A DNA stretch of 64,000 nt from an uncultured Nitrososphaerota archaeon (lineage in GTDB: Archaea > Thermoproteota > Nitrososphaeria > Nitrososphaerales > Nitrosopumilaceae). Positions 5,847-55,993 of this stretch are shown piece after piece. Positions within the stretch are counted from its first letter, which is position 1. The number at the start of each line of letters is the position of its first letter. The stretch spans positions 480,001 to 544,000 of the forward strand of contig CAWGPD010000004.1 of assembly GCA_963824385.1 (NCBI GenBank). Direction: 5' to 3'. Made by a program: the position numbers and the translations under genes. The notes below the pieces were generated by a model. The model made no database searches. It was not told the origin of the DNA and saw only the letters and a list, made by a program, of their open reading frames with translations.

Positions 5847-7023
5847 CTAACTCCAAACTTTTTCTTGGAAAGTCCATTTTTTATTTAGTAAGAAATTTCC
5901 TACTGACGCAATAGCGACTGCTAAGAATAACGCAATAGAGTAATTCAAGTGTCGCAATTCAACTAGACCATACACCAGCAACAGTTGAAAGACTGCACCA
6001 ATACCACTAAAACCAAGGAATAATCCATATTGAACCAGTGTTCTTTTTGGATTAAAGTTTCTATCTTCAAATGTCCAGATCTTGTTGAGGACAAAATTAG
6101 AACTCATTGAGAAAACAATTCCTATCATTGTAGCATAGATATACCAAAGATTGGAAAGGACAGCCCCAAACATAAAAGATACAAAATAGTTTACTAGCAA
6201 TCCAGAAGCACCAACAGTATAAAATCTTCCAGCCTTTGACAAGAAATGGACAGATGTACGCTTTTCAGTTGTTTTTACAGATTTACCATATCGATATAAT
6301 TTCCACACAGATTGTAAATAATTAATACATACTGAAAAATCCATCTTGCTTGAACCCATTGTGCGATCAATGAAATTATAAGGAATTTCTTTGACTTTTG
6401 CACCTCGCGCTTTTACAAGAATCTCAAGTAGTATTTTATATCCAATCGCATCAAATTTTATGTTATTTAGAATATGACGTTTGAATGCAAAAAATCCAGA
6501 CATTGGATCTTTAATTTTTATTCCAAGTCCATGTTGAGCAATTTTGGTGGCTCCTTTACTAATTAATTTTCTTTTAAATGGCCAACCTGAAACAGAGCCA
6601 CCTTTCACATATCGTGATGCCACAACAATATCGCAATCAGAATTTTGTAGTTCTTCTATCATTTGAGGTATAGTTTGTGGCGGATGAGATAGATCACTAT
6701 CCATTACGACTACAGCATCACCTTTTGCATGTTCTATACCAGTTACAATGGCAGAACTTAGTCCTCAGCTTGGTCTCACGACGTATTATATGAATAGAAT
6801 AATCATGGTTTTTGGAGTTTTTGGCGTACTCTTCAACAGTCTTACTTGTACCGTCAGGAGAATTATCATCTACTACTATTATTTCAGCATTCATTTCTCG
6901 TGTTAGTGCTGTCCTAAATGAATCAAGTATTTTTACAATATTTTTAGATTCATTATATGTAGGAATAACGATGGAAAGAGATCTTGCTCTACTAGATAAT
7001 ACTTCCTTCTGAATTATACTCAA
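5847..7023 (-). CDS. GT2 dolichol-phosphate-mannose synthase-like glycosyltransferase with C-terminal GtrA domain (frameshift at ~6766)
   Basis: IVIPTYNE, VDDNSPDGT, MDSDLSHPP and DPMSGFF motifs plus GtrA helices; the two ORFs join on removing 1 nt next to AGCT. Confidence 0.9.
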
Positions 7024-16237: not shown

Positions 16238-17018
16238 TTAGAATGGCTTGTTGACTTCTCTTGTGAAGACATAGCTTGCAATGGCTACCATTACTACCAC
16301 AAATCCGCATATTACGGATATTTCTATAGCCGCTGATAATATTTGAGCAGTGCCAGTCATCATCTGCCTAATCAATAACACAGAATAGGTTACAGGATTG
16401 AGTCTTGCAACAAATGCAAGCCAAGACGGTAAGAGTTCCAAAGGAAAGAGAGCAGGACTGAGCATAAACAGAGGCATTCCCAGAAAGTTGATGAGGCCCC
16501 AAAAGGTTTCTTGTGATTTAGATGTGGCAGCTACAACAACAGATATTCCAGAGAAGCCAAGTGAAAATATGATTACAGTCAACAATATTGGAAACACCAT
16601 AAGCAAGTTTGACATATGAACTCCTAACGCAAGTGCAATTCCTAAAATCAAACTTGACTGTAGCGCAGATATCAAGGATATTGCAAGCATTTTACCTAAT
16701 GCAATAGACGACCTAGAGATTGGAGAAACAAGAGACTTTGTTCATGAAACCGTATCTTCGATCCCACAAAGTGTTTACTCCACCGAAAATACTTGTGAAT
16801 ATAGCAGTGAGCATTATCACACCTGGTGCCATAAATTCTATGTAAGAACCGTGAAAACCTACAGACTGAATCAAGGGTCTAGTACTTGCAAATGTGTTAC
16901 CCATAACTATAATCCATATGGCAGGTTGAATTAGTCGTATCAGTATTCCGCTTCGTGATTTCTTGTATCTTTTCATCTCCCTCCAGAAAATAGTATAAGT
17001 ATCCGATATCATCGTCAT
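16238..17018 (-). CDS. ABC-2 type exporter permease (1-nt insertion at ~16735)
   Basis: YIEFMAPG, DRRYGFM and NPVTYSV motifs; the two ORFs join on restoring AGCT. Confidence 0.9.
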
Positions 17019-19096: not shown

Positions 19097-19414
19097 ATGG
19101 AAATTCAAGAGGGAACCTTCAAGGCAACGCTAGTTACAACGGGGAGAAAGTCAGGCAAAGAGCACTCTGTTGAGATTAGGGCCGTATATTACAAGGGAAA
19201 ATTCTATTTTTCCAGAAGAAATCCAAATAGTGACTGGTTAAAAAATGCGCTTTACAATCCTAATGTCAAAATAGAATATCAAGGAAAATTTATTTTAGGA
19301 ACAGCGTCATTGGTCAATAATCAAGAATTATGTAAAAAGATATCACAGATGAAATATGCTGATAAACGATCTGAGGAAGTAAGAATAGTTTTACAAGTCA
19401 ACCCATGTGAATAA
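19097..19414 (+). CDS. Deazaflavin (F420)-dependent nitroreductase-like split-barrel protein
   Basis: LVTTGRKSG and SDWLKNALYNPNV motifs. Confidence 0.75.
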   Translation: MEIQEGTFKATLVTTGRKSGKEHSVEIRAVYYKGKFYFSRRNPNSDWLKNALYNPNVKIEYQGKFILGTASLVNNQELCKKISQMKYADKRSEEVRIVLQVNPCE

Positions 19415-20051
19415 TTGTAGTCATACCGCGTCGTTCATGTTCTTGACCATCTCTTGTTTCAGTTACAACAACCGTAAAAGAAACAACGTCTCTAGGATTA
19501 CATTTGTGAGCATCCATTTTCAAATGTAGATCTAAAAGTTCAAAGTCTTCATCAGAAATGTTTGATTCATCAATTATAACATGACTTGTAGAACTTATCA
19601 AAAATCTCTTATCCTTTTGATGCCATCCCAATTTTACTCTATACCCTTCTCTTCCAATTGCTTTTACAGTTATGTCTATTACTCCAGGTTTTGCAAGTGC
19701 ATAACCAGACATATTATTAACAAAAACTCCCACTTGAAATGGATATCCGGCAGTATTTTCTGCCATTTTTTGTATTCCATCATTCATGACAACATCAACT
19801 CCTTTTATCGTAGTAGCAATCTTTGCTATCCATTCATTTGTTCGTTCAACTATTGCATGTATTTGCGTGCGTCGTTTCTTGTCTTCGTCTTCAGGGAGTT
19901 TGTAATAATCAACCCATGCTAGATAATCCCCACATATGTCTTTGATAAATTGCATGCATGTTACCTTGTAATCTTCAACACTTGATGCTCTTTCAGAACC
20001 CTCATCATATGGTACATCGTCTTTATCCAATGGAAGCATGAGTTGTCTCAA
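19398..20051 (-). CDS. Hypothetical protein
   Basis: 217-aa ORF with typical composition; no recognised motif. Confidence 0.65.
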   Translation of the reverse strand: MRQLMLPLDKDDVPYDEGSERASSVEDYKVTCMQFIKDICGDYLAWVDYYKLPEDEDKKRRTQIHAIVERTNEWIAKIATTIKGVDVVMNDGIQKMAENTAGYPFQVGVFVNNMSGYALAKPGVIDITVKAIGREGYRVKLGWHQKDKRFLISSTSHVIIDESNISDEDFELLDLHLKMDAHKCNPRDVVSFTVVVTETRDGQEHERRGMTTIIHMG

Positions 20052-41140: not shown

Positions 41141-41813
41141 CTGTTACCCCAAGCATAGATTTGACTCTTTCAGTCAAGTTCGGTGTATGCGCCAGGGCAT
41201 CGATCATTTTCACTGCTTCTACTGCCTTTAATAATCCCTCTGAATCTTCACATGAAATTACTATCCATCCATTTTGACCTATTGTTATAATTGCTTTAGT
41301 AGCCATTTCAATTGTTTGAATCATAGAACCACGTTTGCCAATTAATCGAGGTACTTTGCTTGGAGAAATCTCAACGAGTTCACCTGAATCGATCTTGCCA
41401 AGATCTCTATCTTGTACTGTCAAAAGTGGATCTCTTGATCTATCAAAATTAGCAATTCTAGTTGCAACCAAATCTCCGATATCTAATCTTTGTTTGAGTT
41501 CATCTTTAGTAGGAGAATAATCTCTACCAAAAACATCTTGGGCTGGCAAAAATCCCACAAAGCATGAATTTATGTCAAACTCCCAAGAAAGAGGAGAAGT
41601 TCCAATTACTTTTCCTATAACCAAGTCATTTGCCTTTGGCATATATCCACCAGTGAGAGGAATAACTTTTACAGAATTTTCAAAAATTTCAGAAATTCCA
41701 ACACATGTTGAAATCATTCTGTCACCATCTTGGTACACATTTTGTTCAGGTCGTAGAGGACCAGTTGCTATAACATCGCCAGGAATAACATATCGTCTTT
41801 TTACATCCATCAT
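41109..41813 (-). CDS. rrp4: Exosome RNA-binding subunit Rrp4
   Basis: S1 + KH domains (KVPRLIGKRGSM, GQNGWI). Confidence 0.95.
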   Translation of the reverse strand: MMDVKRRYVIPGDVIATGPLRPEQNVYQDGDRMISTCVGISEIFENSVKVIPLTGGYMPKANDLVIGKVIGTSPLSWEFDINSCFVGFLPAQDVFGRDYSPTKDELKQRLDIGDLVATRIANFDRSRDPLLTVQDRDLGKIDSGELVEISPSKVPRLIGKRGSMIQTIEMATKAIITIGQNGWIVISCEDSEGLLKAVEAVKMIDALAHTPNLTERVKSMLGVTDGENNDTIND

Positions 41814-42500
41814 TTTGAAACCTCAATAGAAGCAGTACCCTTTGTTACCGATCCTAATCTGTCCATTACATTTGCTCTTGCCGCCGCCGGTATATCTAGT
41901 ATTACTTTGAGTCCACCGTTTGATTGCCATTCTTCTTTTTTCAAAGTTCCAAAGGACTTTAAAACAGAATAAGATTGTGCGGCAAATTGAGCCGGCACTA
42001 GAATTTCTAGAAGCATATTTTCAGACTTTAACGGAATTATCGATCGAAGTTGTTCTATTATTTCTTTTATCTGTTCATCAGTATTTCTAAAAGGATCAAC
42101 TGATACCCTTGCATCATCCATAGACTTGTTCTATCCTAAGTGGAGGATGCGGAAGATGGGATCTTGGATCAACATAGCTTTTAGCAATAAAGTCTACTAT
42201 TTGTTTACGTTTCTCAGACACCATCTTTCTTCGCTGATCAGTAGTAAGATTCAGTTCTCCTTTTTCAAGCATTATAGTAGCAATTACATTTGAGTCAGTG
42301 GTTTTGAATGCCTTCATAAGTTTCTCTGTAGATGCCCTTGTTCCTTTATTGGAATCAGTGTAAATCTCATCTGAAATCAATACTCCAGAGATGTCCTTAC
42401 GCTTACCTATCTTAAATTCCAAAGCAGGATCTGGTTTTACCAATATTTCGAACTTTTCTCCTTCTACTGAGAACCTCACGACTGTTACTTTGGTATCCAT
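41810..42500 (-). CDS. Ribosome maturation factor SBDS/Sdo1 (1-nt insertion at ~42124)
   Basis: FEILVKPD and PHPPLRIEQAMDDA after repair. Confidence 0.94.
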
Positions 42501-51550: not shown

Positions 51551-52516
51551 TTAGATTTCTAGCTTGTCAAGCATTTTAGATATATCAGATATTGACTTGC
51601 CTCCAGCAGAAATTTCTTGATATGCGGGAGGATTTTCAAGATAGTTTGGAATTCGGTCTAACATTCTTTGGTCATATGATTGTGCTATATCATTTTGGTA
51701 AAATATTCCTGTTGGGATCTTTGAATCCCATTCGTTAGATTTTATCAATGCTTGAGTTAGTTTTTCATTTTCTTCTTCTGGCGAGTCAATATGTACAACT
51801 GGATCATACCCCACATCCTCAAGCTTGTAGATTCTAGGTCTTGGCCTATTTGTCATTTCATCAATGTTATCCATTCCTGAGAACCAATCTCTTGTATTGA
51901 TATCATTGTAAGTAGGACATGGTTGTAAAACATCAAGAAATGAAAGACCTCTGTGTTTTATTGCTGCAATAATCAAGTCCTTGAGCTGTCTAACATCATA
52001 TGCATAACCTCTTGCAACAAATGTAAATCCACTTGCAATAGCTAATGCAATAGGATTTACTGATTGATTGACATTGGGTTCTGGGAGAGATTTGGTCTTC
52101 AATCCAAGTTTTAGTGTAGGAGACGCTTGTCCTTTTGTAAGACCGTACACTCCATTATTAAAAATAAGATAAGTCATGTCCACATTTCTTCTACCTGCTG
52201 CGACAAAATGTCCTGCTCCAATTCCCAATCCATCACCGTCTCCACCTACTGCAACAACAGTCATCTCAGGATTTGCAAGTTTTGCACCCTGTGAAAATGG
52301 AAGTACTCTACCATGCAAAGTATGAACACCATACACATTAAGATAATGAGATGTTTTTCCAGAACATCCAACTCCAGAAAATATCGCAGCTTTATGTCTT
52401 GGAATTTCCATTTCTGCCATTGCCATTTGAATTGCACTAACAATTCCAAAATCTCCACATCCTGGACACCAATCATTGTGTACTTCAGTCTTGTAATCTG
52501 CTACATTAGACACCAT
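51551..52516 (-). CDS. 2-oxoacid:ferredoxin oxidoreductase beta subunit
   Basis: WCPGCG, GDGD...NN TPP-binding motif and GQASPT. Confidence 0.95.
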   Translation of the reverse strand: MVSNVADYKTEVHNDWCPGCGDFGIVSAIQMAMAEMEIPRHKAAIFSGVGCSGKTSHYLNVYGVHTLHGRVLPFSQGAKLANPEMTVVAVGGDGDGLGIGAGHFVAAGRRNVDMTYLIFNNGVYGLTKGQASPTLKLGLKTKSLPEPNVNQSVNPIALAIASGFTFVARGYAYDVRQLKDLIIAAIKHRGLSFLDVLQPCPTYNDINTRDWFSGMDNIDEMTNRPRPRIYKLEDVGYDPVVHIDSPEEENEKLTQALIKSNEWDSKIPTGIFYQNDIAQSYDQRMLDRIPNYLENPPAYQEISAGGKSISDISKMLDKLEI

Positions 52517-54419
52517 ATTTTAGCACCTGTTTTTTCTCCGCTTTGTTGTCGATAATTTTCTTGATAGAATCAAAGAGTTCATCACATGTCATTGGTCTTC
52601 CAGTGTATTTTAATATGTAATAGTCAACTTTTCTGTCTAGATATTCATTAAGTAATGAGCCCATTTGGCCAGATTGATTTGCTTCAATATCAATTATTTT
52701 TTTAACTCCTGAAAGCAAGGACTGGATGTATTTTGTTGGAAATGGATGAAGCATCTTAATTTGAATAAACCCAACCTTATAGCCTGCTTTATTGAGCATT
52801 TCAATGGCATCTAAAATAGGTCCTTTTGTTGAACCCCAGCTAAGAATACAATAATCTGATACTCCATAGTTTATTGCCTGATCTTCTTTAGGAATTTGTT
52901 CTAGCGCAAGTTCCATTTTACGTTCACGTTTATCCATTTTATAGATACGATTTTCTGGGTCTTCTGATATGTGACCTGATTCATCACTTTCATCTCCAGT
53001 ATTCCAAAATATTCCATTTTCAAGCCCAAGTCTTGATCTTGGAGATATACCGTCTGGTGATGGAGTGAATCTTTTATAATCAGGCTCTTCAATTTTTTGA
53101 AGAAGTTTTCCTCGTTCTATTGTAATTTTAGTTGGATCAAATCTTTTCACTGTAGAAACTGTACTTGCAATAAATTTGTCCATCATGTGAATTACAGGAA
53201 TTTGATAAATGTCTGCAAAGTTGAAACATTTTGCAGTATCGTAAAATCCTTCCTCTGTGTCACCTGACGCATATACAATTCTTGGAAAGTCACCATGTCC
53301 AGCATGAATTGCAAATTGTAAATCATCTTGTCCATGTCTTGTAGGAAGACCTGTTGAGGGACCACTTCTTTGATACAAAGTTAATACAAGTGGGACTTCG
53401 TTTATCCCAGCCCAACCAAGAGCTTCTGCCATAAGAGAGAAACCTGGACCAGATGTACTTGTCGAAGATCTTGCTCCTGTCAAGGACGCACCAATTACCA
53501 TGCCAATTGCAGATATCTCATCTTCTGTTTGTACAACTAGAGTTGAACCAGGTCTGTTGTTTTCAACCTCAATAATTTCATTTGATTCCAAAAATACACT
53601 TTCATCTGATGCTGGAGTAATTGGATAGTATGATTGGAACCTACAACCACATGCTATCTTTCCAAGACTAGTAGATTGAAAGCCTTGGGCTAGCATGATA
53701 TGGTCTTCTTTTGTAATTGGAGATAATTGATATTTGAATTTAGAATATTTTACCGTAGAAAAATTATATGCATAATTTGCTGCAGTTTTATTCATTTCTG
53801 CAATCTCTGCTTTTCTTGAAAATATAGAACCAACTGATTTCAATAATGTTTCAGGAGGTAGTCCTAGCAACCCAATAGATATAGAGACAGCAAGGACATT
53901 TTGCATACGAAACATTCCACGCAATTTTGGGTTATTGGTTTCATCTGATAAATTACCTAGAATTTCCTTAAATGAGACAGGATATAGTGTAACGCCCCTC
54001 TCCTTTGCTGCATCAAGTGCTCCTTGTATTGTAAACGGTTTATTTTTGGATGAAAGGTATGTCTCAAGACGTTTCTTGAATTGTGCATCAAGTGTATGTA
54101 CTTCATCTGTTTTTATTGCAGATAGATCAGATTCATACACTATAGCACCATCATCAAATACAGCATCTGCGTGCCGAAATATGGTCTCAGCATCAAAGCC
54201 CACTAGCATTGTAATTCCACTAACATTTGATCTAACTATTTTATCAGAAACCCTAACTCCAAAGTAACTGTGCTCACCTTTGATATTAGAATAAAATTCT
54301 CTTTTACCAAATACTTTCAGACCACAACCTGCACATGCACCAGCAAAAATATTTGCCGCAGTCTCTACACCGCCTCCCTGAGGACCACCAATAACCCAAG
54401 TTAGATCAATAGAGGACAT
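52506..54419 (-). CDS. 2-oxoacid:ferredoxin oxidoreductase alpha subunit (gamma-alpha fusion)
   Basis: YPITP, TSGPG and GPSTGLPT motifs. Confidence 0.95.
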   Translation of the reverse strand: MSSIDLTWVIGGPQGGGVETAANIFAGACAGCGLKVFGKREFYSNIKGEHSYFGVRVSDKIVRSNVSGITMLVGFDAETIFRHADAVFDDGAIVYESDLSAIKTDEVHTLDAQFKKRLETYLSSKNKPFTIQGALDAAKERGVTLYPVSFKEILGNLSDETNNPKLRGMFRMQNVLAVSISIGLLGLPPETLLKSVGSIFSRKAEIAEMNKTAANYAYNFSTVKYSKFKYQLSPITKEDHIMLAQGFQSTSLGKIACGCRFQSYYPITPASDESVFLESNEIIEVENNRPGSTLVVQTEDEISAIGMVIGASLTGARSSTSTSGPGFSLMAEALGWAGINEVPLVLTLYQRSGPSTGLPTRHGQDDLQFAIHAGHGDFPRIVYASGDTEEGFYDTAKCFNFADIYQIPVIHMMDKFIASTVSTVKRFDPTKITIERGKLLQKIEEPDYKRFTPSPDGISPRSRLGLENGIFWNTGDESDESGHISEDPENRIYKMDKRERKMELALEQIPKEDQAINYGVSDYCILSWGSTKGPILDAIEMLNKAGYKVGFIQIKMLHPFPTKYIQSLLSGVKKIIDIEANQSGQMGSLLNEYLDRKVDYYILKYTGRPMTCDELFDSIKKIIDNKAEKKQVLKYGV

Positions 54420-54480
54420 GATGCGTCTAGACGCTCATCAAATATTAATAATTCTATGATTTTTTTGAAAAGACGGTATA

Positions 54481-54621
54481 CTAACCGCCAGTTGCAGCAT
54501 CAAATAAGGCGCATTCACATTTATCACGTTCACCACAAAATGGGCAAACACATACACATTTTTCTAAAGGATTCCTACATTGGACACAAATAGCAAACTC
54601 ATCTTTGTGTTTCAATTGCAT
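54481..54621 (-). CDS. 46-aa Cys-rich microprotein ending in Gly-Gly, not in the ORF track
   Basis: MQLKHKDEFAICVQCRNPLEKCVCVCPFCGERDKCECALFDAATGG*; TTTATAAT upstream. Confidence 0.75.
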   Translation of the reverse strand: MQLKHKDEFAICVQCRNPLEKCVCVCPFCGERDKCECALFDAATGG

Positions 54622-54754
54622 ATCATTACTTTGATTAATTATAAATGAGTTGTTGTAAAGGCGTAAAATGAATTAATTATGTGGATTTTTACTTGGGAAC
54701 AGTTGATTTTTCATCATGATACGCTTAAAATTGTCATTTACTCATTGAAAATAG

Positions 54755-55713
54755 TTGAAAATATTACTTACGCGAAGGCTTCATGATTTTGCTGTAAAGG
54801 AACTCAAAAAGAAATACGTTGTAGAAATCCACACTGGAAAGATTCCTATGCCAAAAAAATTACTGATATCAAAAATCAAGGATAAAGATGGCCTAATCTG
54901 TTACCCTTATGATTTCATAGATGCTGACGTAATTAATGCCGGGATTAAACTTAAGGCAATTTCTACCTATAGCGTTGGTTATGATCATATAGACATCAAG
55001 ACTGCTACGAGTAGAGGTATTACAGTTGGTTATACGCCAGAAGTATTGACCCGAGCTACTGCAGATATGACTATGGCTTTGATGTTATCTCTTTTTAGAA
55101 GAATACCTGAAGGTAACCAGATAATTCGCAAGGATAAATGGAATATAATATTTGGTCCCTATGATTTTCTTGGAACAGATCTATATCAAAAAACTCTAGG
55201 CATATTTGGAATGGGAAGAATAGGAAAAGCAGTAGCAAAAAGAGTGCAGGTTTTGAGATGAAGGTAATTTATCATAACAGAACTAGATTATCAATCAAGG
55301 AGGAAAAAAAAATAGGAGTAAAATACGTATCATTGAATAATCTTTTTAGAACAAGTGATGTTGTAAGTATTCATTCTCCGCATACACCTCAAACACATGA
55401 AATTGTGAATTTAAAATTATTAAAGAAAATGAAAAGAACTTCATTTTTAATTAATACTGCGCGTGGCAAAATAATTAATGAAAAAGATCTTGCAATTGCA
55501 TTACAAAGAAAAATAATTGCAGGAGCTGGACTTGATGTATTCCAAAAGGAGCCAATTAATTCCAAACATCCAATTGTAAAAACAAATAATTCTATACTAA
55601 CACCTCATAGTGGAAGTGCTACGATTGAAACTAGAAAAGAAATGGCAGAGATTGCAGTCAAGAATCTAGTACTTTCACTTGCTGGCAAAAAACCAATTTA
55701 CCAAATTAAATGA
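54755..55713 (+). CDS. D-2-hydroxyacid dehydrogenase/glyoxylate reductase (1-nt deletion at ~55244)
   Basis: GMGRIG, INTARG, LDVFQKEP and TPH motifs. Confidence 0.92.
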
Positions 55714-55732: not shown

Positions 55733-55993
55733 TTAAAGCTCAATTAGATCATTTGGATCTATTTTGATACAACTAGTGCCTACAGGTTTTAAGCCAGTAA
55801 AATTAATAGTTCCTTGGGGAACTTTACCTTCTTTTTGGAGAGACTCTAACTTTTCAGTAAATGCATTTTTGTGCCCATCACATGCAACACCAACCATGTA
55901 TTCTCCATCTTCAGATTGGATAGAAATTACAAATTCAGGCGGCATTGGGCAATCCTTGCCCATTTTTCTAATAGAACAATGTTCAGGGAACAC
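55733..55993 (-). CDS. Small hypothetical protein, possibly Zn-binding
   Basis: C...C...CDGH pattern. Confidence 0.65.
   Translation of the reverse strand: MFPEHCSIRKMGKDCPMPPEFVISIQSEDGEYMVGVACDGHKNAFTEKLESLQKEGKVPQGTINFTGLKPVGTSCIKIDPNDLIEL

What the first reader, a model, noticed from the sequence alone, without database searches (positions are those of the whole stretch)
54481..54645. 8-Cys microprotein with a free C-terminal Gly-Gly, upstream of the 2-oxoacid:ferredoxin oxidoreductase
Seen: the 46-aa ORF has the pattern CxxC-x6-CxCxCxxC-x5-CxC followed by the tail ALFDAATGG-stop. It has its own TATA element and lies on the same strand as the oxidoreductase genes. Established: a terminal GG is the activation handle of ubiquitin, SAMP, MoaD and ThiS, used by E1/ThiF enzymes, but those proteins have a beta-grasp fold that this peptide is too short and Cys-rich to form. 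Inference: it could be a non-beta-grasp conjugatable tag or sulfur carrier built on a two-metal Cys8 core, or a metal/Fe-S chaperone for the neighbouring enzyme. The window also holds two rhodaneses and SUF genes, but no linkage is shown.
Basis: partly seen in the sequence, partly recalled or inferred. Interest (0 to 1): 0.75.

Follow-up and report, generated by a model that had tools for sequence, protein, structure and literature searches.

The report
Gly-Gly-tipped partner of archaeal oxidoreductase
A tiny, unnamed eight-cysteine protein ending in Gly-Gly is encoded right in front of a central carbon-metabolism iron-sulfur enzyme in nearly all ammonia-oxidising archaea sampled and in several other archaeal groups, and probably helps build or guard that enzyme's iron-sulfur cluster.

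Summary
The ORF is real (true start probably TTG 54615, 44 aa). It defines a family with no Pfam, NCBIfam or PDB match. A tail-free query hit 311 of 401 class genomes (a few hits are unrelated zinc ribbons); it also occurs in Bathyarchaeia, Thermoplasmata and Methanoperedens records. The Thr-Gly-Gly-stop end is under protein-level selection: 71 of 72 enzyme-adjacent copies found without using the tail end in GG; 190 of 196 overall. Context, however, points to the 2-oxoacid:ferredoxin oxidoreductase (OFOR) and iron-sulfur handling, not to an E1 system. 196 of 214 tail-bearing copies lie directly upstream of OFOR alpha, one lineage fuses it to an Nfu iron-sulfur carrier domain, and 0 of 121 large loci hold an E1, ubiquitin-like or JAB gene. 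Best reading (0.42): a non-covalent OFOR accessory whose Cys8 core holds metal and whose GG arm reaches the enzyme's exposed cluster. E1 activation (sulfur carrier or tag) remains open (0.25). No binding, metal or expression data were obtained. The SUF and rhodanese genes in the window show no linkage.

The parts
54481..54615 (-). Cys8 microprotein, probable true CDS (TTG start, 44 aa); first-ATG reading 54481..54621 gives 46 aa
   Evidence: start judged from 12 same-genus upstream regions; purifying selection
54511..54588 (-). Cys8 core CxxC-x6-CxCxC(P)xCG-x4-CxC; all eight Cys and the final GG invariant in a 93-sequence alignment (built from motif-matching, GG-ending members, so invariance is partly by construction)
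   Evidence: core length 26 aa in 220 of 226 motif ORFs
54481..54510 (-). C-terminal arm ALFDAATGG plus stop; T-G-G conserved, arm length 8-14 aa in relatives
54638..54655 (-). BRE-like run and TATA box (TTTATAAT at 54645..54638) of the microprotein gene
   Evidence: sequence; kept in 12 of 12 printed relatives; function inferred
54440..54451 (-). AT-rich TATA-like element of OFOR alpha inside the 61-nt gap, suggesting a separate promoter in this lineage
   Evidence: conserved in same-genus intergenic sequences printed; function inferred
52506..54419 (-). 2-oxoacid:ferredoxin oxidoreductase alpha subunit (two-subunit archaeal type), proposed partner
   Evidence: NF041170 over cut-off; PDB 5B48/5B46 relatives at E 1e-158
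51551..52516 (-). OFOR beta subunit (carries the single 4Fe-4S cluster in solved relatives), proposed partner
   Evidence: NF041171 over cut-off; PMC5020499 passages

Best explanation
It is a dedicated, dispensable accessory protein of one clade of archaeal two-subunit OFOR. Shown: real conserved gene, fixed position before OFOR alpha, fusion to an Nfu domain in one lineage. Inferred: the Cys8 core binds metal (two Zn, or Fe/Fe-S); the 8-14-residue arm ending in Thr-Gly-Gly-COO- threads, without covalent activation, to the enzyme's single 4Fe-4S cluster, which in this enzyme type sits near the surface of the empty ferredoxin-domain pocket. There it helps load, repair or shield the cluster. The small glycines allow entry and the free carboxylate docks on a basic site or on iron.
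For: Position: 196 of 214 tail-bearing copies lie within 400 nt upstream of OFOR alpha on the same strand; 17 of 18 fetched copies from other classes of the phylum; also in records named Methanoperedens, Methanocellales and Thermoplasmata, i.e. it moved with the enzyme. Operons ferredoxin-microprotein-alpha-beta with gaps of 14 nt or less in L045, L069, L090. Co-occurrence in family f31: 11 of 25 carry it and all 11 are among the 12 with this OFOR. Two genomes whose first-found copy was detached have a second copy in front of their OFOR (L321, L323). Two off-locus paralogues sit 11 and about 20 nt before a lone beta copy (L076, L082). Fusion behind an Nfu domain (PF01106, invariant CxxC) in L048 and six 90%-identity clusters, five with the Pfam hit. 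Neighbours in 121 loci: ferredoxin 15, ferritin-like 21, rubrerythrin 7, IscU/SufU-like 4; E1, Ubl, JAB 0. A second, unrelated ~100-aa Cys-rich protein with its own conserved acidic tail fills the same slot in 13 of 40 OFOR loci lacking the microprotein. Arm length varies 8-14 aa and the end tolerates +G, +D, +E, and G to E/A. The enzyme type lacks the internal ferredoxin domain and has its cluster near the pocket surface (PMC5020499).
Against: Many OFORs of the same or sister clades lack it: 67 of 80 microprotein-negative class genomes have an NF041170 hit, with several separate losses on the tree, and no OFOR residue tracks its presence cleanly. One single-contig genome (G541, 97% complete) keeps an intact copy but has only a distant OFOR. 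Many Nitrosopumilus-type paralogues keep the full tail far from any OFOR gene, amid Lrp/AsnC-domain genes, three clusters even fused to that domain. The Nfu fusion is one lineage. Neighbour counts come from related genomes and are not independent. Strict GG conservation is more naturally explained by enzymatic activation than by docking. No metal, binding or expression data.
Confidence: 0.42

Rival explanations
1. Non-beta-grasp E1 substrate: the housekeeping E1 adenylates the terminal Gly; the protein then carries sulfur as a thiocarboxylate to OFOR's cluster (or another Fe-S site), or is conjugated to OFOR lysines as a SAMP-like tag. One-residue extensions (GG+G/D/E) would be trimmed by a JAB protease.
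For: GG-stop in 205 of 226 motif ORFs, all four Gly codons and all three stop codons used. E1 present in 66 of 70 carrier genomes and 5 of 5 more; own genome has an E1 and two JABs. Its two canonical Ubl domains are fused at their GG (Ubl-E1, Ubl-Cgi121), so this is the only small conserved free-GG protein seen among 6 GG-ending ORFs. A thiocarboxylated GG tail binding a 4Fe-4S cluster has precedent (TtuB-TtuA, PMC7138817 abstract). Non-beta-grasp GG proteins were predicted to exist in archaea (PMC2948915).
Against: 0 of 121 loci hold E1, Ubl or JAB; no E1 fusion among 30 longer hits. E1 is also in 10 of 10 genomes lacking the microprotein, so co-occurrence says nothing; 4 carriers (90-95% complete drafts) show no E1. 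TGE (3 distinct copies) and TGA (2) ends in OFOR-adjacent genes. No beta-grasp surface for E1 recognition. No thiocarboxylate route to Fe-S assembly is known to me (recalled).
Confidence: 0.25
2. Redox-switched post-translational regulator: the cysteines sense oxidation or metal status and the arm plugs OFOR's substrate or ferredoxin site to set flux direction or rate (works like chloroplast CP12 on GAPDH; recalled analogy).
For: Same synteny evidence; separate promoters for microprotein and OFOR in this lineage allow independent dosage; paralogue expansion and fusion to an amino-acid-sensing Lrp/AsnC domain; terminal carboxylate could mimic a 2-oxoacid.
Against: Nfu fusion and iron-storage neighbours fit cluster handling better; no structural support obtained.
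Confidence: 0.13
3. Brz-like zinc-finger microprotein that regulates transcription of the downstream OFOR operon.
For: Two C(P)xCG-type knuckles; Brz is a small zinc-finger gene directly upstream of, and regulating, bop (PMC2253796 abstract); 10 of 46 members match Pfam Zn_ribbon_3 weakly.
Against: Does not explain the invariant TGG end, the Nfu fusion or the extra four cysteines; the protein is acidic rather than basic in most members.
Confidence: 0.08
4. Metallothionein-like metal store or detoxifier with no specific partner.
For: 8-9 Cys in 44 aa (a ninth Cys follows the motif in 136 of 205 GG-ending copies); ferritin-like neighbours.
Against: No metallothionein family match; fixed synteny with OFOR and a conserved non-metal-binding tail are unexplained.
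Confidence: 0.05

Closest known systems
Archaeal Ubl proteins (SAMP1/2, MoaD, ThiS, TtuB, Urm1-like)
   Same: Small protein with a free, selected C-terminal Gly-Gly on an extended arm; one-residue extensions occur.
   Different: No beta-grasp fold, half the size, Cys8 core, no E1/Ubl/JAB neighbours; not among the 8 GG/CC-ending arCOGs of the 2010 screen (PMC2948915 passages).
C(P)xCG zinc-finger microproteins of haloarchaea (Brz, HVO_2753 class)
   Same: Under 70 aa, two C(P)xCG-type knuckles, gene directly upstream of a same-strand target gene (Brz).
   Different: Four further Cys in CxC pairs, conserved TGG arm, Nfu fusion, fixed link to OFOR. Metal cannot be read from the motif: of 14 such proteins purified, 9 bound zinc (PMC11241148 abstract).
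Extra small subunits of OFORs (epsilon subunit of Aquificae five-subunit PFOR; PorE/PorF polyferredoxins of Methanococcus; domain VII arm of Desulfovibrio PFOR)
   Same: Small extra gene in the OFOR cluster of unclear role, not always needed; domain VII is an arm that shields the proximal cluster from oxygen (PMC13768988, PMC5020499 passages).
   Different: No ferredoxin motif or Fer4 match; belongs to the two-subunit archaeal type, for which the 2026 review passages I saw list no extra subunit. Sequence likeness to the epsilon subunit was not tested directly.
Nfu/NfuA Fe-S carrier proteins
   Same: Fused to the microprotein in one lineage, directly upstream of OFOR alpha.
   Different: The microprotein itself has no Nfu domain; most carriers lack the fusion.
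LysW-type carrier proteins, Pup/UBact, CP12 (all recalled, no call)
   Same: Small metal-knuckle or disordered body plus a conserved reactive or docking C-terminus.
   Different: They end in a reactive Glu/Gln or acidic tail with a dedicated neighbouring ligase or target; no ligase neighbour was seen here.

Membership tests
Ubiquitin-like / SAMP / MoaD / ThiS | Beta-grasp fold | tested here: not met
   No ThiS/MoaD match in Pfam or NCBIfam; two models (pLDDT 68, 67) have no beta sheet; no structural match (low-confidence models)
Ubiquitin-like / SAMP / MoaD / ThiS | Conserved free C-terminal Gly-Gly | tested here: met
   71 of 72 OFOR-adjacent copies from tail-free searches; 190 of 196 overall; pN 0 in last four codons
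Ubiquitin-like / SAMP / MoaD / ThiS | Genomic link or fusion to E1, JAB or sulfur-transfer partner | tested here: not met
   0 of 121 loci with E1, Ubl or JAB; rhodanese 1, SufS/IscS-like 2; no E1 fusion in 30 longer hits
Ubiquitin-like / SAMP / MoaD / ThiS | E1 present in the same genome | tested here: inconclusive
   66 of 70 carriers but also 10 of 10 non-carriers
Ubiquitin-like / SAMP / MoaD / ThiS | E1-dependent adenylation, thiocarboxylation or conjugation | not testable with these tools
   needs in vitro assay or proteomics
C(P)xCG zinc-finger microproteins | Under 70 aa with two C(P)xCG-like motifs | tested here: met
   consensus CxxCGN ... CPYCG; the window's copy has Arg in place of the first Gly
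C(P)xCG zinc-finger microproteins | Bound zinc; role in transcription of the adjacent gene (Brz) | not testable with these tools
   no metal or transcript data
Ferredoxin / OFOR delta subunit | CxxCxxCxxxCP cluster motif, Fer4 match | tested here: not met
   motif absent; no Fer4 hit in 46 members, whereas true ferredoxin neighbours hit
OFOR accessory subunit | Conserved place in the OFOR gene cluster | tested here: met
OFOR accessory subunit | Physical association with the enzyme | not testable with these tools
   needs co-purification; see Tried and rejected for the one prediction job
Metallothionein | Match to a metallothionein family; metal-induced, multi-metal loading | tested here: not met
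   no family match; loading and induction not testable

The most novel reading that the evidence does not exclude
A Cys8 metal-knuckle protein with no beta-grasp fold is activated by the archaeal E1 at its Gly-Gly end and delivers thiocarboxylate sulfur (with Nfu or its own core supplying iron) to build or repair the 4Fe-4S cluster of the central carbon enzyme OFOR, or is conjugated to it. That would be a new structural class of E1 substrate and a new route to Fe-S maintenance, near-universal in ammonia-oxidising archaea.
Probability: 0.25. Interest if true: 0.87.

Novelty: new variant of a known kind. Interest (0 to 1): 0.66.

Why it matters
Ammonia-oxidising archaea are among the most abundant microbes, and this OFOR links their carbon fixation to biosynthesis (own knowledge). 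A near-core gene sitting in front of it has gone unnamed in Pfam, NCBIfam and the papers I could search. It gives a direct, cheap handle on two open questions: how oxygen-sensitive OFORs are matured or protected in aerobic archaea, and whether archaeal E1 enzymes act on substrates outside the beta-grasp fold, as proposed in 2010 (PMC2948915). The same gene slot is filled by a second unnamed Cys-rich family in other lineages, hinting at a general, overlooked OFOR accessory function.

Tried and rejected
Complex prediction of the microprotein with OFOR alpha (3-632) and beta (6-300): no verdict, score 0.00 in two runs, partner fold uncertain; not used as evidence. Structure models: pLDDT 67.9 and 67.4; Foldseek PDB nothing under E 3.5, VIA wide no match at Z 2; PDB sequence search 0 hits. 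ESM Atlas: only unnamed clusters for the microprotein and for the ~100-aa slot-filler. Expression: no RNA holder listed; two probably-DNA runs laid, no information. Overlapping RNA or DNA-level constraint on the tail: rejected, Rfam 0 hits, synonymous changes abundant. Sigma-70 scan is not suited to archaeal promoters. OFOR residues tracking microprotein presence: none clean among 106 carriers versus 19 non-carriers (one of 20 fetched non-carrier loci dropped for incomplete genes). Homology between the microprotein and the ~100-aa family: none (hhalign probability 0.4). SUF/rhodanese linkage: not conserved. MoaE not found in the own 86%-complete genome. GTDB scan with P0172 alone found nothing. 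Weak hits rejected as unrelated zinc ribbons: G071, G360, G388, L087-L089, L138, L139, L149. Literature searches that found no description of this family: (open-access library only; supplements not read, and arCOG or core-genome tables there could list it as a hypothetical protein). Earlier-findings look-ups returned nothing.

Full report
Observation. The minus-strand ORF 54481..54621 reads MQLKHKDEFAICVQCRNPLEKCVCVCPFCGERDKCECALFDAATGG-stop, exactly as described. It sits 61 nt upstream of a two-subunit archaeal 2-oxoacid:ferredoxin oxidoreductase (OFOR; NF041170 and NF041171 over their cut-offs), whose closest solved relatives are the Sulfolobus tokodaii enzymes. The TATA box at 54645..54638 is conserved. 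The ATG is not: three of 12 printed relatives have a stop just before the shared TTG at 54615, so the product is probably 44 aa.

It is a gene, and the GG is selected as protein. The first homologue set (107 of 121 ending in GG) is biased, because the search uses shared words that include the tail. I therefore searched with the core only (window 54511..54603). It hit 311 of 401 class genomes: 218 of 223 in f1, 10 of 10 in f2, 72 of 78 in f3, and 10 of 89 in the other families. These counts include a few unrelated zinc ribbons (G071, G360, G388). In loci cut from those tail-free hits, 71 of 72 OFOR-adjacent copies end in GG-stop. Over all loci fetched, 242 motif ORFs reduce to 226 distinct ones (16 identical copies dropped): 205 end in GG (153 TGG-type, 52 GGG), 4 in GG plus D or E, 5 in TGE or TGA, and 12 have other ends, all of them off-locus paralogues or a duplicate. 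The residue before the glycines is Thr in 206 of 209. All four Gly codons and all three stops are used; among 30 same-genus copies pN/pS is 0.036 (core), 0.078 (tail) and 0 (last four codons, pS 0.45). Only 6 of 8912 ORFs of 40 aa or more in the own genome end in GG. Rfam finds nothing over the region. The arm from the last motif Cys to the end is 8-14 residues; two copies insert five residues but keep AATGG-stop, so the terminal motif behaves as a unit on a flexible arm.

Range and context. A profile search of 401 phylum genomes found 79 carriers, 19 outside the class; of 18 fetched, 17 lie directly before OFOR alpha (G722, a weak hit in a long frame, was not fetched). A GTDB scan confirmed 548 stretches; the 80 shown are named Bathyarchaeia, Nitrososphaeraceae, Thermoplasmata, Methanoperedens, Methanocellales, and three bacterial bins that may be mis-binned. 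Overall 196 of 214 tail-bearing copies are within 400 nt upstream of OFOR alpha, 1 precedes a beta copy, 16 are elsewhere and 1 is at a locus end. In deep lineages the gap is a few bases and the order is ferredoxin-microprotein-alpha-beta (L045, L069, L090). In family f31, 11 of 25 genomes carry it, all among the 12 with this OFOR. Two genomes with a detached copy have another in front of their OFOR. Two paralogues precede a lone beta copy, the cluster-bearing subunit (L076, L082). A search for longer forms gave 30 hits (weak for absence): six clusters, five with the Pfam hit, fuse the microprotein behind an Nfu Fe-S carrier domain with an invariant CxxC, as in L048, where the fusion precedes OFOR alpha; two there and one fuse it to an Lrp/AsnC ligand-binding domain; none to an E1. 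In 121 loci of 5 kb or more the neighbours include OFOR alpha 110, ferritin-like 21, ferredoxin 15, rubrerythrin 7, IscU/SufU-like 4, cysteine desulfurase 2, rhodanese 1, and E1, Ubl or JAB 0. These genomes are related, so the counts are descriptive.

Limits of the link. The enzyme often lacks the microprotein: 67 of 80 negative class genomes have an NF041170 hit at E 1e-100 (50 over cut-off), as do Sulfolobales-like and other lineages. On an alpha+beta tree of 125 enzymes the carriers fall in one clade with several losses (support values not examined), and no residue tracks presence. One single-contig genome keeps it with only a distant OFOR (G541). So it is an accessory, not a core subunit. 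Of note, 13 of 40 microprotein-free OFOR loci have a different ~100-aa Cys-rich ORF in the same slot, with its own conserved acidic tail and no family match.

The E1 question. The own genome has one E1, two JABs and two Ubl domains, both fused at their GG (Ubl-E1, Ubl-Cgi121), as described for this group (PMC2948915 passages). E1 is found in 66 of 70 carriers and in 10 of 10 non-carriers, which neither supports nor refutes. For activation: the strict GG and single-residue extensions that a JAB could trim; and the precedent of TtuB's thiocarboxylated end binding a 4Fe-4S cluster (PMC7138817, abstract only). Against: no genomic link, no beta-grasp body, and TGE/TGA ends in five distinct adjacent copies from two genera.

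Mechanism. Shown: gene, selection on Cys8 and TGG, tight and mobile coupling to one OFOR clade, one Nfu fusion lineage. Inferred: metal binding by the core (metal unknown; such motifs can bind zinc, other metals or none, PMC11241148 abstract), contact with OFOR, and a role at its cluster. Two-subunit OFORs lack the internal ferredoxin domain, so the single cluster lies near the surface of a large pocket, and another OFOR shields its cluster with a C-terminal arm (PMC5020499 passages; PMC13768988 passages). I put 0.42 on a non-covalent maturation or protection role, 0.25 on E1 activation (which could serve the same end), 0.13 on a redox-switched inhibitor, 0.08 on a Brz-like transcription regulator (PMC2253796 abstract), 0.05 on metal storage, and the rest on other roles.

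Novelty. No Pfam or NCBIfam family over cut-off for the window protein (10 of 46 members touch Zn_ribbon_3 at best E 9e-5), no PDB sequence or fold match, only unnamed Atlas clusters, and sources name it hypothetical or not at all. The 2010 screen for small archaeal proteins with conserved GG or CC ends lists 8 arCOGs, none fitting this family by its description. Seven literature searches found no description (open-access only, supplements unread). By motif it is a C(P)xCG microprotein and by context an OFOR accessory, so I file it as a new variant of a known kind; it would be categorically new if E1 activation is shown. Papers seen: PMC2948915, PMC5020499, PMC13768988 as passages; PMC7138817, PMC11241148, PMC2253796 as abstract and outline; others as listings only. 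LysW, Pup/UBact and CP12 analogies are recalled, not from calls.

Noticed in passing
L126:1004-1342, L127:348-698, L129:948-1334, L130:1152-1469, L134:1114-1434, L137:338-646, L151-L154, L158-L160: A second unnamed ~100-aa Cys-rich family (CxxC...GxC...C...CxxC...H, tail like EEAPSAD / EEAPGGD) sits directly upstream of OFOR alpha in 13 of 40 loci lacking the microprotein; no Pfam/NCBIfam family, unnamed archaeal Atlas clusters; no detectable homology to the microprotein.
   Followed up: partly
L048:3344-3697; P0162, P0278, P0279, P0281, P0283, P0284: Nfu-domain plus microprotein fusion; annotated by sources only as NfuA/NifU family.
   Followed up: yes
L073, L074, L077, L079-L086; P0208, P0285, P0286: Nitrosopumilus-type genomes hold up to 6-7 paralogues in islands rich in stand-alone Lrp/AsnC ligand-binding domains: a His-containing type that keeps the GG tail, and types that keep the Cys8 core but end in a different conserved tail without GG; three clusters fuse the GG type to an Lrp/AsnC domain.
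   Followed up: partly
L076:3701-4489 and L082:3821-4786: Lone extra OFOR beta genes (263 and 322 aa) without alpha in the fetched stretch, each directly behind a microprotein paralogue.
   Followed up: partly
P0146, P0280, P0282: Microprotein fused behind an unknown ~85-aa N-terminal domain with a CPxC motif, in clusters of 4-33 members; no Pfam match.
   Followed up: no
G217, G255, G265 (genus g20; L168, L169, L309): Reduced genomes (0.8-0.9 Mb) of the own family keep OFOR and E1 but have lost the microprotein; their beta subunits also lose otherwise conserved Trp residues.
   Followed up: partly
window 54755-55261 and 55258-55713; 5847-7023; 16238-17018; 41810-42500; G000:C2 around 19243-19449: Several genes are split into two overlapping frames or interrupted (2-hydroxyacid dehydrogenase, glycosyltransferase, ABC permease, SBDS, Ubl part of the E1), suggesting indel errors in this assembly rather than biology.
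   Followed up: no
window 55733-55993 (-): 86-aa ORF with Cys/His motif, conserved near the locus in 12 loci including distant families; no Pfam or NCBIfam match.
   Followed up: no
G000:C1:179221-179709 (-) and C1:293478-293876 (+): Two larger ORFs of the own genome (162 and 132 aa) also end in GG; the first ends in TGG like the microprotein. Not examined.
   Followed up: no
L222, L223, L226 (records named Thermoplasmata): Detached copies ending in TGG plus Asp with a conserved N-terminal extension; their genomes hold the same OFOR clade elsewhere.
   Followed up: partly
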